The notes beneath the pieces were generated by a model. That model was not told the origin of the DNA, searched no databases, and saw nothing but the letters and a program-made list of their open reading frames with translations. Both the position numbers and the translations under genes were made by a program. This document shows, in pieces, positions 24,915 through 37,776 of a stretch of DNA of 64,000 nucleotides (position 1 is its first letter; the number at the start of each line of letters is the position of its first letter). Source of the stretch: a virus (taxonomy: Duplodnaviria > Caudoviricetes); the IMG/VR virus record IMGVR_UViG_3300005611_000013, positions 9,082-73,081 of that record, one strand, 5' to 3'.

Positions 24915-25128
24915 TCCATTAATCAATCTGATGGAACTCCATTATACCATGAGGAAATCTGAAAGTCAACGTAAGTGCTTGATATCATTAGACTTACGTC
25001 ACCGACGCCCCGCCCCCCGAGCCGTAAGTCCTTTGTTTTCAACGACTTACGTCACCGGGGCGAATGGAGAGCGGGAGAACGGGGCTGATGAACAGATGAA
25101 CACGGCCCCGTCTCCCTTCCCACCACCT

Positions 25129-26331
25129 TTACAGTGTAAGAGCGTACACCTTCTCATAATCCTTGTCGGTGTACGTTCGTGAACGTGCGAGAATGTTAGT
25201 CCATCGTGATGCACTAGTGTCCATCAGTAGACCGCCGATCTCATCAAGACGAACCCATGACTCATTATCAAACACCTGACCCGCACGGGTGATGGCGTTG
25301 ATGATACCAAACTTGTTATGCTCATGGGTTTCATGGGCAAGATACTGCTCAAGCGTTTCCGTTGCCTGTTTCTTGCTCAACTTGAAGTCGGAAGCAACGG
25401 CAGCGATAACACCCTTGGCGTTTGCATTGTCCATTGATTCCGCACGGGTATCAAGGAACTTACGAATACCGTCAGGAAGGATGGACAACTGAAACTCAAT
25501 GTTTTCAGCAATCATAATCTTGAGTTTATCAAGATCAATCTTTCCACGGTGAACCCGTGAAATATCCTTACCCTTTGTCTGACCCCAGATGCAACCATTC
25601 ATGCAGATCGCACGAAAGAGGCTAGGCGTCTGCGTGATGCGGCGTTTGCCGATCTCACAGTTACCCACAGAAACCATGCCACCGTAGTCGGTGTCGTCAT
25701 CCTGACCATAATCAATAACAGAGTCAGGAATCAGAAGGTTGCCGTAGATAGTATCCTCATCACCCTTCCAGTGTGAGAACCGTGCATCGGGCAGGAACTC
25801 ACGAAGAGTTTCCAGATACCAGCGGTTATCAATCGGGGCATACTTATCGGTAACAAACGCACGGGCAGTCCCGTCAGTATAGGTGCGAAGGCGAAACTCC
25901 TTGTCGGCATCAATCCGACGCAGAGCGTTATTGCCAATGCGGGCCATGAGGTCGGCATCGTGCTCATCGTACCCATCCAGTTTGCGAAGTTCACGCATGA
26001 CGCTGGACGATGGAACCTTGGTGCGGATGCTAAACTGCTCCAGGCAGTGATCCGTTGGCGTGAACGAGCGACCGTCAGCAGTGGTGAACTGCATGACATC
26101 ATTCACAACCGTGCAGGAAATCTGCCCAGCCTTGACCATGACATCCTCACGGTTATCAATGGCGTTTTGAGTCTTCTCAAGAACGTCATCGTAGGATTCA
26201 GTTTTAGCCCACCAATCTTTGTGGACATGGGCATTCTCTGCAAATCCTGTTCCGGTCGCACCTGTCAGGTTGCGAACAAATGAACCCGCAGTAATATCGC
26301 TATCAATCTTGATTTTCTCGTAAACAGTCAT
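25129..26331 (-). CDS. DUF932-family phage/plasmid protein
   Basis: ARAFVTDKYAPIDN...VGNCEIGK...LFRAICMNG...FGIINAITRA pattern. Confidence 0.7.
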   Translation of the reverse strand: MTVYEKIKIDSDITAGSFVRNLTGATGTGFAENAHVHKDWWAKTESYDDVLEKTQNAIDNREDVMVKAGQISCTVVNDVMQFTTADGRSFTPTDHCLEQFSIRTKVPSSSVMRELRKLDGYDEHDADLMARIGNNALRRIDADKEFRLRTYTDGTARAFVTDKYAPIDNRWYLETLREFLPDARFSHWKGDEDTIYGNLLIPDSVIDYGQDDDTDYGGMVSVGNCEIGKRRITQTPSLFRAICMNGCIWGQTKGKDISRVHRGKIDLDKLKIMIAENIEFQLSILPDGIRKFLDTRAESMDNANAKGVIAAVASDFKLSKKQATETLEQYLAHETHEHNKFGIINAITRAGQVFDNESWVRLDEIGGLLMDTSASRWTNILARSRTYTDKDYEKVYALTL

Positions 26332-26375
26332 ATCAATCTCCTAAGTGGTGGGAATCAAACTCAACTCTGTATATC

Positions 26376-35126: not shown

Positions 35127-35386
35127 CCCCCCACTGGTGGTAACGCTTTTGGGCTGCTCACAGATTAGGCAGTGCGTTTTTTGGCACGGAAGTTGCTGTA
35201 GTGTGCAAATATCATGCCAAACGCTATCCGTCCGGTTTGGGTGAGACATGGCACGGCGTTTGCCATGGCAAGTGACGTAAGTCCTTATATATCAACGACT
35301 TACGACTCGGGCGGCGGGGCTTCAGCGACGTAAGTCCTTTATTCCCAAGGGTTTACGTCACCGCCCGCTAGCCACTGTACATACGT

Positions 35387-37129
35387 TCAGGTATCCATCT
35401 GTTCAGCGTATGCCTCATCCATCATCATCATCTCTAGTGTACGCCTGTTCAGTTCTTCCATGTGTTCAGCATGTTCAGCCGATTCAGTGTACAGACGTTC
35501 ATCTTCACACATTCCGGGGTAGTAGGTGTCCATGTGTATAGTGCTCCTTTGTTCAGTTGGAGGATTCGGGATACCAGTGGAGACGAAGTTGGTTCGCACA
35601 GTTTGCAATCAAGTTGCGATGAAACTGGCGGTCATACTCATCAAGATCCCAACGTTCTAGGCAGATCTGGCTCTGCTTGATGGCAGAGATGAGATCCTGC
35701 ACTTCATAGTCAAGATCTGAAAATCGGAATCCGGGGGTTTGTGCAACGCTCATTTTTCTTTCCTTTTCCTTTGTGATGCTCTGATTCTACCAGAGATTTT
35801 CTTGCTCGTCAACACTGAACATGTGTTCAGTCAAGGTACTCTAGGCCAGTAATCTTGTCTTCGTGAAACGTCTTCGTCTCACCGCTGGTCAACAGTACGG
35901 TGATGCAGTAAACGTTTTTCAGTGAACGAAACCGGCTCACCACTTCACCGTCGCGGGCCTTGCCATTGTAGAAAAAGCGGATTCTTGGGTTTTTCATGTC
36001 TTTCATCTCCTTGGGTATGTCCTGATTCTACCAAATGTTTTTCGGGCTGTCAACACTGAACAGGTGTTCAGATCAGATCGTTCACCAGTTCGTTGCCATT
36101 CTGGTCAACGATCCTGAACTCTGTAGCGTGGTCGCTACCTTCCCAATCGCCACGGACAATGTTTTCCAGCATGGCGGCATTGCTGTGAGTGGTGTACCCA
36201 ATCACTTCGCCATAGATGTCATAGATACGGGCGATGAACAGAGGTGTAGTTGTGAAGTTCATTTTCTTTTCCTTTTCTTTCTTTTCCTTACTTCTTATAT
36301 CGGCATTCTACCAAAGATTCTTGAATCCGCAATACTGAACAAATGTTTTTTTGTGTCAAGATTTCTTGACAAAGATCGCAGCAAGATTGCGGTCGTTTGG
36401 CACGCAGTGTGCTATTGCAAATATCGTGCCAAACTTTTTGGCATGGAAAATGCGTCCCGAAGTGACGTAAGTCCTTTCATATCAACGACTTACGACTCGG
36501 GCGGCGGGGCCGCGATGACGTAAGTCCTTTATTCCCAAGGGTTTACGTCTCACGGTGGCGAACGCGGTGTACATGCGTCTACCTAGTGTACAGTTGTGAG
36601 TACTGAACAGATGTCTACCTGTACATGCGAATCCCCCTCATTAGAGAGAGGATTCTAGAAGGTGATGGTCAACCTGATTCTCATAGAAGTTGCGATACTC
36701 TCCACCTTCAAGGCGAACGCAAATCAAGGCACCCCTCTGGTAGAGATCCTCTGAACGATCCTCGCGGATGCTCATGATCTCGCCAGTGTACCGGTTTCCA
36801 CTCTTGGAAACCCATTCCACACTGTCACCGATCTTGTAGCGGTTTGAAGCGTTGACGTTGATGAAGTTTTTCATTTTTCTTTCCTTTGGTTTCTTTCTTC
36901 TTCTTCTATTCTACACTATCGGCTTTTGGGTGTCAACCCCTTGAATGGATTTTTTTCAGCAGGCCAACGCTCCTGCTTGGCGTAGGATGGACATGCTGTA
37001 CATGTTTTCATCACCATCCCACTTTTCCCAAGCCGCTGTTTCGGCTTCTTCCTTTGTCTGGAATGGACCAATGTAGTCCAGTTCGCATTCCCAAGCATCC
37101 ATCACGAGAGCGTAGTAGTTGTAGATCAT
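35387..37129 (-). CDS. Small early-type ORFs
   Basis: 35387-35608, 35553-35753, 35827-36006 (manual, MKDMKNPRIRFFY, SH3-like), 36068-36262, 36641-36874, 36956-37129 (manual, MIYNYYALV). Confidence 0.55.
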
Positions 37130-37776
37130 TTTCTGTTTCCTTTTCTTCTTTCTTTCCTTTTCTCTATTCTAGACTATCGGCAATCCGCTGTCAACCCCTT
37201 GAGGATTTTTTTTTCGGATTTTTTTTGCCTCTCGTCTTTCCCTCTCAACTATGCCACCATTATACCAAACGATCCAGATTTGTCAATACTGTACAAATGT
37301 TTTTTTGGGATTTTTTTTTGTGTGCAAATATCATGCCAAAAATCATTGGCACGGCAAATGCGTCTGAAAGTGACGTAAGTTGTTGGTATCAAAGGACTTA
37401 CGACGCTGGCGGCGGGATGGCAGATACGTAAGTCTAGGCATATCAACCACTTACGACTCATGGTAAGATGGGTGGGGTGGGGGTTTTATCTTCAAAAGTG
37501 AACTTGGGTAAAATGGCGAAAAAGCCCGGGGTGGTTCAAACAAAATAACCCCAATCAAATTAATATGTCTTACCCGATCTCTTCAGATAGACCCTAAGAG
37601 TTGCTAAATATTACCGCAATGTGTATAATATCACTAGGAGGAAACAACTATGAAACAGAAGAAACAAATAGACTGTCAATTGAATTGCAAAGCGACCGCA
37701 TCTTTGTCGTTAGAAGTATTAAACGATTTAAATCAAGAAGATCGCCCCATTGCATCCATAATTAACGACGAACGAA

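What the first reader, a model, noticed from the sequence alone, without database searches (positions are those of the whole stretch)
24970..37455. Paired 29-bp palindromes at an invariant 53-bp pitch
Seen: CGTAAGT-N15-ACTTACG (a few copies end GTTTACG) occurs in 9 loci. In all 8 paired loci the second copy starts exactly 53 bp (about 5 helical turns) after the first, across a GC-rich 24-bp spacer, while the inner 15 nt vary. Several copies contain an exact IHF consensus WATCAANNNNTTR (e.g. TATCAACGACTTA in the copies at 29429, 35276, 36466). Each locus lies within ~60 bp of a sigma70 -35 or a sigma54 site. Inference: phased double binding sites for a DNA-bending dimer (IHF/HU-like or phage-encoded), or recombination sites; the extended imperfect hairpins could also act as ssDNA (attC-like) sites.
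Basis: partly seen in the sequence, partly recalled or inferred. Interest (0 to 1): 0.85.

Follow-up and report, generated by a model that had tools for sequence, protein, structure and literature searches.

The report
Phased palindrome cassettes before phage early promoters
An uncultured large phage, and dozens of its relatives, carry a conserved 82-bp mirror-symmetric DNA module (two 29-bp palindromes exactly 53 bp apart around a GC-rich core) just upstream of early promoters; it looks like a docking site for an unknown DNA-binding protein and also marks the points where gene modules are swapped between phages.

Summary
There are 17 copies of CGTAAGT-N15-ACTTACG, as 8 pairs at exactly 53 bp plus one single (0.12 copies expected by chance).

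The window is part of a 73-kb IMG/VR phage contig. Its genes left of 37.5 kb run on the minus strand. Every site lies between genes, 1-57 bp upstream of a promoter element:
- a sigma70-type promoter at 4 loci;
- a textbook sigma54 -24/-12 box at 5 loci.

The same cassette, at the same pitch, occurs in more than 100 distinct copies in related IMG/VR contigs, including complete 223-244 kb phages. In each phage it is confined to one GC-enriched region of about 20 kb at the start of the early arm.

The 82-bp unit is dyad-symmetric as a whole. It has strong inner half-sites, weaker outer ones, and a GGCSSGCC core whose orientation is random.

The variable positions show no base-pair covariation, so selected RNA or ssDNA (attC-like) hairpins are unlikely.

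The genomes searched lack IHF/HU, bEBP, sigma54, serine recombinase, confident tyrosine recombinase and topoisomerase II genes.

Best reading: phased double-stranded operator/enhancer sites for an unidentified sequence-specific protein, inside portable early-promoter cassettes that also mediate PeSL-like module shuffling. The IHF match is partial and mostly a by-product of the half-site sequence.

Other first-stage readers noted this stretch and its sigma54 boxes on this same genome.

The parts
24970..25051 (-). Cassette 1: two 29-bp palindromes (24970-24998 and 25023-25051) with a G-rich spacer. A sigma70-like promoter, TTGACT-17-TATAAT, abuts it at 24969-24941 on the minus strand.
26701..26782 (-). 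Cassette 2. The distal outer half-site is the CGTAAAC variant. A sigma70 promoter, TTGACA-16-TAGAAT, lies at 26670-26643 (minus).
29376..29457 (-). Cassette 3. A sigma70 promoter lies at 29346-29319 (minus). A GAAC-N4-GTTC box at 29487-29476 sits 19 bp upstream of the distal palindrome.
30360..30441 (-). Cassette 4 (CGTAAAC variant).
30234..30326 (-). Promoter cluster of cassette 4. It holds a sigma54 box TGGCATGATATTTGC at 30326-30312 (minus), a convergent sigma54 box at 30293-30307 (plus), and a sigma70 promoter with a CCGATA spacer at 30261-30234. It drives the 234-aa DUF7227/GP88 gene at 30206-29502.
32497..32578 (-). Cassette 5. A sigma70 promoter lies at 32480-32453 (minus). A GTAC-N4-GTTC box lies at 32609-32598.
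33676..33704 (-). Single (proximal-type) palindrome that keeps the C-rich spacer on its upstream side. A GAAC-N4-GTAC box at 33740-33729 occupies the place of the distal palindrome.
33538..33641 (-). Promoter cluster of the single site: a sigma54 box at 33641-33627 (minus), a convergent box at 33608-33622 (plus), and a sigma70 promoter at 33566-33538.
35276..35357 (-). Cassette 6 (CGTAAAC variant, C-rich spacer).
35182..35263 (.). Three sigma54 boxes in alternating orientation: 35249-35263 (plus), 35219-35205 (minus) and 35182-35196 (plus).
36466..36547 (-). Cassette 7 (CGTAAAC variant, C-rich spacer).
36398..36431 (.). Sigma54 box TGGCACGATATTTGC at 36431-36417 (minus), with a convergent box at 36398-36412 (plus).
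37374..37455 (-). Cassette 8, the first cassette of the leftward early arm. It lies next to the divergence from the rightward structural arm, whose genes start at 37777.
37259..37338 (-). Sigma54 box at 37338-37324 (minus) and a perfect sigma70 promoter, TTGACA-16-TATAAT, at 37286-37259.
24000..38000 (-). GC-enriched island (43-46% GC, against about 35% elsewhere) of small early genes. It has about 27 strong sigma70-like promoters on the minus strand and no excess of intrinsic terminators. All cassettes lie inside it.

Best explanation
Each locus is an 82-86 bp dyad-symmetric protein-docking module on double-stranded DNA. It has four inverted half-sites (consensus G-n-CGTAAGT-CC-TT) on one face of the helix, at centre spacings of 22, 31 and 22 bp, around a GC-rich GGCSSGCC core.

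The two inner half-sites are nearly invariant. The outer ones are weaker, and the promoter-distal one is often CGTAAAC. This pattern fits cooperative binding of two dimers (a dimer of dimers) of one sequence-specific protein. That protein is not identified and is probably not IHF.

The module is the upstream part of a portable early-promoter cassette with three parts:
1. the palindrome pair;
2. in about a third of copies, host-type sigma54 -24/-12 boxes at fixed offsets;
3. a sigma70 promoter, often with a CCGATA spacer motif.

Inferred function: the bound protein regulates or insulates the adjacent early transcription units, acting as an enhancer, an operator or a boundary. Where sigma54 boxes are present, the palindrome centres lie about 76 and 129 bp upstream of the start, the usual place for an enhancer.

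Because the cassettes are long and nearly identical, they also serve as crossover points at which gene modules are gained, lost and reordered between phages.

Shown: the anatomy, conservation, genomic confinement, lack of structural covariation, promoter association and breakpoint coincidence. Inferred: protein binding, cooperativity and the regulatory outcome.
For: Occurrence and pitch:
- 17 copies against 0.12 expected.
- 113 distinct pair cassettes in related IMG/VR contigs. Start-to-start distance is 53 bp in 120 distinct neighbour pairs, against 14 at 52 bp and 2 at 54 bp.

Confinement to one region:
- Sites cluster in one region of about 20 kb in complete relatives: G001 117-138 kb of 223 kb, G002 161-181 kb, G005 113-130 kb, G003 199-208 kb.
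- That region has raised GC and lies at the start of the early arm, syntenic with the window.

Sequence pattern:
- Conservation is position-specific. The arms are invariant and the centre is free. The dyad extends to flanking G/C and through the spacer to a central GGCSSGCC.
- The core orientation is random relative to the promoter (GG 25, CC 20), so it is read as duplex DNA.
- Half-site hierarchy: inner half-sites are CGTAAGT in 49-51 of 63 cassettes. CGTAAAC occurs 17 times at the promoter-distal outer half-site and never at the outer-proximal one.
- No base-pair covariation, and A-C mismatches are at least as common as G-U.

Promoter association:
- A sigma70-like promoter lies within about 100 nt downstream in roughly 58 of 109 cassettes (69 within 300 nt, against 14 upstream).
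- Strong sigma54 boxes lie downstream in 34 of 109 and upstream in 1 of 109. Preferred offsets are 33-36 or 56 for forward boxes and 7-14 for reverse boxes.
- All strict sigma54 boxes in the 73-kb contig (8), and all 7 in the 223-kb G001, lie within about 95 bp of a palindrome.

Module exchange:
- Indels bounded by cassettes. One L191 cassette aligns to two L164 cassettes that flank an extra module of about 550 bp. L180 has an extra 1.15 kb made of a module plus a cassette.
Against: - No binding protein has been identified. Pfam and PHROG scans of the neighbouring genes and of genes shared with G001 found no DNA-binding domain.
- The distance from the palindromes to the sigma70 -35 varies (1, 17, 30, 31, 88, 99 and 110 bp in the window). 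This argues against a classical phased sigma70 activator.
- About two thirds of cassettes lack sigma54 boxes, so a pure sigma54-enhancer role cannot be general.
- The commonest sigma54 box points toward the palindromes and would start transcription at their edge. No simple enhancer model explains this.
- A contiguous conserved half-site of 12-14 bp is long for a simple helix-turn-helix dimer.
- No expression or binding data could be obtained.
Confidence: 0.55

Rival explanations
1. The palindrome pair is specifically the enhancer (upstream activating sequence) for a host enhancer-binding protein (bEBP) that activates the phage's sigma54 promoters. Cassettes without sigma54 boxes use the same bound protein in another way, or are derived forms.
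For: - Sigma54 boxes occur only beside cassettes.
- Their offsets are fixed at 33-36 or 56 bp, a difference of two helical turns.
- Two dyad sites on one helical face, centred about 76 and 129 bp upstream of the start, resemble known bEBP site pairs (my knowledge of NtrC, XylR and DctD promoters).
- The boxes match TTGGCAYRnnnTTTGCW in 63 instances.
Against: - No bEBP (PF00158) and no sigma54 gene was found in the contig or in the complete relatives searched (five for PF00158, four for PF04552).
- 69% of cassettes have no sigma54 box, yet their palindromes are just as well conserved.
- The commonest box is inverted and fires into the palindromes.
- The motif is not enriched in 401 sampled Pseudomonadota genomes: 4 hits against 13 control hits. 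This is a weak test because only exact matches count.
- Known bEBP sites are 16-20 bp, not 29-33 bp (my knowledge).
Confidence: 0.15
2. One reading: each palindrome is a site for an IHF/HU-family bending dimer, and two phased U-turns shape the upstream DNA.
For: - 6 of the 10 exact IHF consensus matches in the window fall in palindromes.
- A symmetric reading, YAA-N4-TTG...CAA-N4-TTR, maps onto T3A4A5, T10T11G12, C18A19A20 and T25T26A27. This places the two CAA/TTG elements about 9 bp apart, which is the kink spacing of IHF (my knowledge of the IHF-DNA structure).
- The 53-bp pitch is about 5 helical turns.
Against: - The invariant C1, G2, G6 and T7 and the flanking G/C are positions that the IHF consensus leaves free.
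- WAT is not conserved in relatives, and the distal palindrome mostly has TAA instead of CAA.
- No PF00216 gene was found in the contig or in 4 complete relatives.
- The exact IHF matches largely follow from the window's own TTGATATCAA centres.
Confidence: 0.1
3. The palindromes act as hairpins in RNA or single-stranded DNA, for example as terminators, RNase processing or stabiliser sites for the upstream transcripts, or as attC-like recombination substrates.
For: - As single strands the cassettes fold well, at -28 to -38 kcal/mol with z-scores of -2.3 to -5.6.
- The region has no excess of intrinsic terminators, so some other 3'-end signal would be useful.
- In the distal palindrome, C2 and G28 co-occur more often than expected (10 observed against about 3 expected, p = 5e-5).
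Against: - The folding energy follows trivially from four inverted copies of a 7-mer.
- At variable positions, complementarity equals shuffled expectation in both the local and the nested model. It is significantly lower than expectation at three inner pairs of the proximal palindrome.
- There is no G-U excess over A-C.
- The frequent CGTAAAC variant breaks two stem pairs without compensation.
- The G-rich or C-rich orientation of the core is random with respect to transcription.
- No integron-type integrase was found.
Confidence: 0.07
4. The sites are targets of a site-specific recombinase or nuclease. The 11-7-11 layout resembles lox, FRT and dif core sites, and such an enzyme would actively shuffle or invert cassette-bounded modules.
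For: - The layout is arms of 11-13 bp around a variable centre of about 7 bp.
- Module indels and reordering have breakpoints inside cassettes.
- The spacer core occurs in both orientations.
Against: - No serine recombinase was found. The only tyrosine recombinase hit is below threshold and in one of five genomes.
- All cassettes in a genome have the same polarity relative to transcription.
- Ordinary homologous recombination between repeats longer than 80 bp explains the breakpoints, as proposed for PeSLs (PMC4122927).
- The different central 7-mers would block exchange between sites by a tyrosine recombinase (my knowledge).
Confidence: 0.08
5. The 13-kb island is a decoy, or sponge, that soaks up host factors such as the sigma54 holoenzyme, a LexA-like repressor and the palindrome binder during infection. 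It would not be a set of promoter-specific regulators. Another first-stage note raised this idea.
For: - Several kinds of host-type sites are packed into one island: sigma54 boxes in alternating orientation with no activator gene, and GWAC-N4-GTWC boxes about 20 bp upstream of the distal palindromes.
- The convergent sigma54 boxes cannot both be productive promoters.
Against: - The cassettes have a strict polarity and position relative to genes and promoters. A sponge would not need either.
- Copy numbers are modest.
Confidence: 0.05

Closest known systems
PeSL (promoter-early stem-loop) cassettes of T4-like phages (Arbiol et al. 2010, PMC2839356; Comeau et al. 2014, PMC4122927)
   Same: - Repeated composite intergenic motifs that carry an early promoter.
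- Clustered in hyperplastic regions of small accessory genes.
- They coincide with indel and replacement breakpoints between related phages (compared with the abstract read).
   Different: - A PeSL is a terminator-type stem-loop plus a promoter.
- Here the upstream part is a pair of 29-bp dyads at a fixed 53-bp pitch around a GC core. Specific positions are conserved across a whole phage clade, and there is no sign of selected base pairing.
- A third of copies carry sigma54 boxes.
- The phages are not T4-like. The terminase is at most about 27% identical to cultured phages and the capsid protein about 22%.
Paired operators of phage phi29 regulator p4 (from my own knowledge, not verified here beyond PMC6524683, which says p4 binds upstream DNA and the RNA polymerase alpha-CTD)
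   Same: - Short inverted repeats separated by 15 bp.
- Sites used in pairs by two dimers upstream of early and late promoters.
- A phage-specific switch acting on the host sigma-A/sigma70 polymerase.
   Different: - The sequence is unrelated.
- Here there are 9 to about 17 loci per genome, not a single control region.
- The distance to the -35 varies.
- No p4-like gene has been identified.
Enhancer sites of sigma54 promoters (NtrC, XylR and DctD type)
   Same: - Two dyad-symmetric sites on one helical face, about 75-130 bp upstream of a -24/-12 promoter.
- Here the sigma54 boxes are found only beside the sites.
   Different: - No bEBP gene was found in the phage genomes.
- The sites are 29-33 bp long.
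- Most cassettes have no sigma54 box.
- Many boxes are inverted.
REP/BIME elements of enterobacteria, including the IHF-binding RIP form (my knowledge)
   Same: - Extragenic palindromic units in pairs with linkers of fixed length.
- Many copies.
- Bound by architectural proteins.
   Different: - REP/BIME elements are chromosomal, dispersed and not tied to promoters, and the paired units are in alternating orientation.
- The elements here are confined to one phage region, lie upstream of promoters, and have a GC-rich dyad core.

Membership tests
IHF binding site | Match to WATCAANNNNTTR, conserved across copies | tested here: not met
   6 of the 17 window copies match exactly. Across 113 cassettes only CAA-N4-TTA of the proximal right half is conserved. 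WAT is free, and the distal palindrome mostly has TAA.
IHF binding site | An IHF/HU-family protein available from the phage | tested here: not met
   PF00216 was not found in the contig or in 4 complete relatives. Host IHF cannot be tested because the host is unknown.
Sigma54 enhancer (bEBP upstream activating sequence) | A -24/-12 promoter (TGGCAC-N5-TTGC) downstream at a looping distance | tested here: inconclusive
   Met at 5 of the 9 window loci and at 34 of 109 cassettes. Absent from the rest. Many boxes are inverted.
Sigma54 enhancer (bEBP upstream activating sequence) | A cognate AAA+ activator with a Sigma54_activat domain | tested here: not met
   PF00158 was not found in the contig or in 5 complete relatives. 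A host bEBP cannot be excluded.
Integron attC / ssDNA hairpin recombination site | Folded-strand pairing maintained by selection, with R''/R' and L''/L' boxes | tested here: not met
   No excess complementarity at variable positions in the local or the nested fold. The outer 7-mers do not fit RYYYAAC / GTTRRRY.
Integron attC / ssDNA hairpin recombination site | An IntI-type tyrosine recombinase | tested here: not met
   PF00589 gave only one sub-threshold hit, in G003, and none in the other four genomes.
PeSL-type mobile promoter cassette | Repeated intergenic motif containing an early sigma70 promoter, in a hyperplastic region | tested here: met
PeSL-type mobile promoter cassette | Indel or replacement breakpoints between related phages fall in the motif | tested here: met
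   Comparisons of L191 with L164 and of L191 with L180. Module order differs between W, G001 and L115. No close relative of the window itself was available.
PeSL-type mobile promoter cassette | The stem-loop part is a terminator hairpin | tested here: not met
   There is no U-run and no selected pairing. There is no excess of intrinsic terminators in the region.
CRISPR mini-array | Identical repeats flanking a variable, target-derived spacer | tested here: not met
   The repeats differ in their inner 15 nt. The 24-bp spacer has a conserved GC-rich consensus.

The most novel reading that the evidence does not exclude
Virulent large phages of an uncultured clade run part of their early programme through the host sigma54 holoenzyme. 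They use a portable 82-bp dyad enhancer bound either by a hijacked host activator or by a new, non-AAA+ phage activator. The alternating sigma54 boxes would set direction or sequester the holoenzyme. I found no report of sigma54-dependent promoters in a lytic phage programme in the paper library searched, so this may be a first.
Probability: 0.2. Interest if true: 0.85.

Novelty: new variant of a known kind. Interest (0 to 1): 0.6.

Why it matters
The cassette defines a conserved cis-regulatory grammar for a whole clade of uncultured 70-240 kb phages that have no cultured relative. The grammar has three parts: a phased four-half-site dyad, optional sigma54 boxes, and a sigma70 promoter with a CCGATA spacer.

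It gives three concrete handles:
1. A DNA bait for pulling out the unknown binding protein.
2. A testable case of sigma54 boxes embedded in a lytic phage's early region with no activator gene in the genome.
3. A second example, independent of T4-like PeSLs, of promoter cassettes that double as recombination joints and drive accessory-gene turnover.

The motif is also a cheap sequence marker for recognising this phage clade, and its early region, in metagenomes.

Tried and rejected
Searches that found nothing:
- Cultured-phage DNA (megablast of the 13-kb region and blastn of one cassette): no match.
- Protein searches against cultured phages: only 22-27% identity.
- Family searches in the contig and complete relatives were negative for PF00158, PF04552, PF00216, PF00239 and PF00521, and for a homologue of the ATPase next to the bacterial repeat. 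PF00589 gave one sub-threshold hit.
- Pfam and PHROG scans of about 45 window proteins gave no clear DNA-binding candidate.

Partial leads:
- A small Myb-like plus AT-hook protein (family f10) is the first early gene before the cassette array in five relatives. It has no counterpart at that place in the window, so I do not propose it as the general binder.

Host-side tests:
- Host-regulon test: the exact motif occurs in 4 of 401 sampled Pseudomonadota genomes, against 13 control hits.
- The bacterial genome scan gave 5 loci. Four are short phage-like contigs binned into MAGs of four different phyla, so they give no host call.

Readings rejected:
- CRISPR mini-array.
- Intrinsic terminators.
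- Cruciform or long-hairpin function.
- A Fis, CRP, TyrR or matS site. These four were compared by eye only.

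
Full report
**1. The observation**

A search for CGTAAGT-N15-ACTTACG with up to two mismatches finds 17 copies in the window, where 0.12 are expected by chance. They form eight pairs whose members start exactly 53 bp apart, plus one single copy at 33676. Four second copies end GTTTACG. There are no copies in the other 9 kb of the contig.

**2. Context**

- The window is bases 9082-73081 of a 73-kb IMG/VR virus contig, estimated about 48% complete.
- It encodes rIIA, a thymidylate synthase with an HNH insert, a large terminase, a Clp protease, a sigma-like factor, seven tRNAs, a tmRNA and a group I intron.
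- Its terminase and capsid protein are only 22-27% identical to those of any cultured phage in the collection.
- Genes left of about 37.5 kb are on the minus strand, and the structural genes to the right are on the plus strand.
- The stretch from 24 to 38 kb that holds all the palindromes has 43-46% GC, against about 35% elsewhere.
- That stretch carries about 27 strong sigma70-type promoters, all on the minus strand, and shows no excess of intrinsic terminators.

**3. Anatomy on the coding (minus) strand**

Every site is intergenic and lies just upstream of a promoter element.
- At four loci a TTGAC(A/T)-16/17-TA(G/T)AAT promoter follows the proximal palindrome by 1, 17, 30 or 31 bp.
- At five loci a textbook sigma54 box (TTTGGCAYGAKATTTGC) follows at 34-36 bp or at 57 bp. 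It usually has a convergent second box, and often a divergent third one, on the other strand. At three of the five, a sigma70 promoter follows 88-110 bp downstream of the palindrome.
- All eight strict sigma54 matches in the 73-kb contig are at these loci.

**4. Relatives**

- Pattern scans of IMG/VR returned many contigs. In the fetched loci I found 113 distinct pair cassettes.
- The start-to-start distance is 53 bp in 120 distinct neighbour pairs. It is 52 bp in 14 and 54 bp in 2.
- In complete 223-244 kb relatives the sites are confined to one region of about 20 kb.
- In G001 this region again has raised GC (0.41-0.42 against 0.33). It sits at the start of a long co-directional early arm, next to the divergently transcribed structural arm, and contains all seven strict sigma54 boxes of the genome.
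- G001 is syntenic with the window, with a terminase 54% identical and a capsid protein 66% identical.
- The cassette is therefore a conserved feature of a phage clade, not a peculiarity of this contig.

**5. Consensus**

I oriented the cassettes by their promoters. This agreed with a sequence-profile orientation in 62 of 63 cases. The consensus is:

G-n-CGTAA(G/A)(T/C)CCTTG-N5-tAAGGACTTACG-aCnAg-nnn-GGCSSGCC-nnn-ntnGa-CGTAAGTsCTTa-N5-CAAcgACTTACG-n-C

- The whole 82-86 bp is dyad-symmetric about the centre of the spacer.
- The central SS is GG in 25 promoter-oriented cassettes and CC in 20, so the core has no fixed strand.
- The two half-sites next to the spacer are CGTAAGT in 49-51 of 63 cassettes.
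- The outer half-sites are degenerate. CGTAAAC occurs 17 times at the promoter-distal outer half-site and never at the outer-proximal one.
- Half-site centres are 22, 31 and 22 bp apart, so they lie on one face of the helix.

**6. Duplex site or hairpin?**

As single strands the cassettes fold well. That follows automatically from four inverted copies of one 7-mer. Three tests speak against a selected structure.
- At the variable positions, complementarity equals the shuffled expectation, both for two local hairpins and for one nested long hairpin. At three inner pairs of the proximal palindrome it is well below expectation: 26 against 36, 22 against 31, and 18 against 37.
- A-C mismatches are at least as common as G-U.
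- The common CGTAAAC variant breaks two pairs without compensation.

Together with the strand-neutral core, this points to recognition of double-stranded DNA by a protein. It argues against terminators, processing sites and attC-like substrates. One contrary signal is the co-occurrence of C2 with G28 in the distal palindrome (10 observed against about 3 expected). This may reflect shared ancestry of copies, or two half-site classes.

**7. What binds?**

- IHF. The consensus match is real in 6 of the 17 window copies, and these account for 6 of the 10 matches in the window. Across the clade only CAA-N4-TTA of one half-site is conserved, and the strongest constraints fall on positions the IHF consensus leaves free.
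- Genes not found in the contig or the complete relatives: HU/IHF, bEBP, sigma54, serine recombinase, type II topoisomerase. The only tyrosine recombinase hit is one sub-threshold match in one genome.
- Domain scans of about 45 window proteins gave no DNA-binding candidate.
- A small Myb-like plus AT-hook protein precedes the first cassette in five relatives. It has no counterpart at that position in the window.
- The exact motif is not enriched in 401 sampled Pseudomonadota genomes.
- The binder therefore remains unknown.

**8. Link to promoters**

- Of 109 cassettes with long flanks, about 58 have a sigma70-like promoter within 100 nt downstream. The count is 69 within 300 nt downstream, against 14 upstream.
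- CCGATA, a motif in the promoter spacer, occurs downstream in 38 cassettes and upstream in 8.
- Strong sigma54 boxes occur downstream in 34 cassettes and upstream in 1.
- Forward boxes prefer offsets of 33-36 or 56 bp. The more common inverted boxes sit 7-14 bp from the palindrome and would start transcription at its edge.
- The palindromes are equally well conserved with and without sigma54 boxes.
- The distance to the sigma70 -35 varies, but the distance to the sigma54 boxes is fixed. This suggests a direct structural relation with the sigma54 holoenzyme where it is present, and a more general role (operator, boundary or architectural element) elsewhere.

**9. Module shuffling**

- Gene families between cassettes recur as blocks whose order differs between phages, and cassettes are present or absent between the same neighbouring genes.
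- In nucleotide alignments, one cassette of L191 aligns to two cassettes of L164 that flank an extra module of about 550 bp.
- L180 has an extra 1.15 kb consisting of a module plus a cassette, with breakpoints inside the cassettes.
- This is the behaviour described for PeSL motifs of T4-like phages (PMC4122927; PMC2839356).
- Homologous recombination between the repeats is sufficient to explain it. No recombinase is needed.

**10. Verdict**

The best-supported reading is a phased, dyad-symmetric docking module for an unidentified sequence-specific DNA-binding protein. It forms the upstream half of portable early-promoter cassettes, and those cassettes also act as recombination joints.

I found no description of such a cassette, or of sigma54 boxes in a lytic phage early region, in the paper library searched. 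I class it as a new variant of a known kind, namely repeated promoter cassettes and operator arrays. The sigma54 association is the most surprising open point.

Other first-stage notes on this same genome flagged the sigma54 clusters and the LexA-like boxes. I had found the sigma54 boxes independently and checked both features here.

Noticed in passing
window 30293-37338: Sigma54 -24/-12 boxes occur in clusters of alternating orientation: convergent pairs with their -12 elements 4-8 bp apart, and some with a third, divergent box. Their N5 spacers are not complementary, so these are repeated protein sites rather than an RNA hairpin. No activator gene is present in the phage genomes.
   Followed up: partly
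window 29476-29487, 32598-32609, 35377-35388, 33729-33740 and others between 24.8 and 35.5 kb: GWAC-N4-GTWC boxes, like the LexA box of Gram-positive bacteria and cyanobacteria, lie 19-20 bp upstream of the distal palindrome at three loci. One replaces the distal palindrome at the single site.
   Followed up: partly
window 24000-38000; G001 117-138 kb: The cassette region is a GC-enriched island, 8-10 percentage points above the rest of the genome, in both phages. The cause is unknown.
   Followed up: partly
window 33289-36053 (minus strand): A second promoter subfamily, GTGTTGACAGCC-AAAAATATCTGGTAGAATCAGGA, is followed by purine-rich AAAGGAAAAGG leaders. It repeats at least six times and has no palindrome cassette.
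   Followed up: no
L236:5387-5560 (contig CAWDVG010000001.1, a gammaproteobacterial MAG): A 53-bp tandem repeat carries the same CGTAAGT-N15-ACTTACG units and a 24-bp spacer, here AT-rich. It sits between two divergent ATPase_2 (PF01637) genes on a 1.75-Mb chromosomal contig, and it is the only such site in that genome. It could be chance, or a cellular counterpart of the phage site.
   Followed up: partly
window 10095-10448 (minus strand): A phage-encoded tmRNA (Rfam 97.5 bits) with predicted tag peptide GETHLALAA.
   Followed up: no
window 18604-18793 (minus strand): A group I intron (Rfam 69 bits) in the early arm.
   Followed up: no
window 6427-8121 (minus strand): The thymidylate synthase reading frame has an HNH endonuclease domain inserted between its two halves, as an intein or in-frame insertion would.
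   Followed up: no
window 38517-39044 (plus strand): A small sigma-like protein (Sigma70_r2, E = 7.6e-6) is the second gene of the rightward arm, next to the first cassette. It is conserved in G001.
   Followed up: no
L229:15481-15714 (G001) and homologues in L180, L188, L060 and L001: A 74-89 aa protein with a Myb-like helix region and an RGRPKK AT-hook is the first early-arm gene before the cassette array in five relatives. It is a candidate regulator there, but it was not found at that place in the window.
   Followed up: partly
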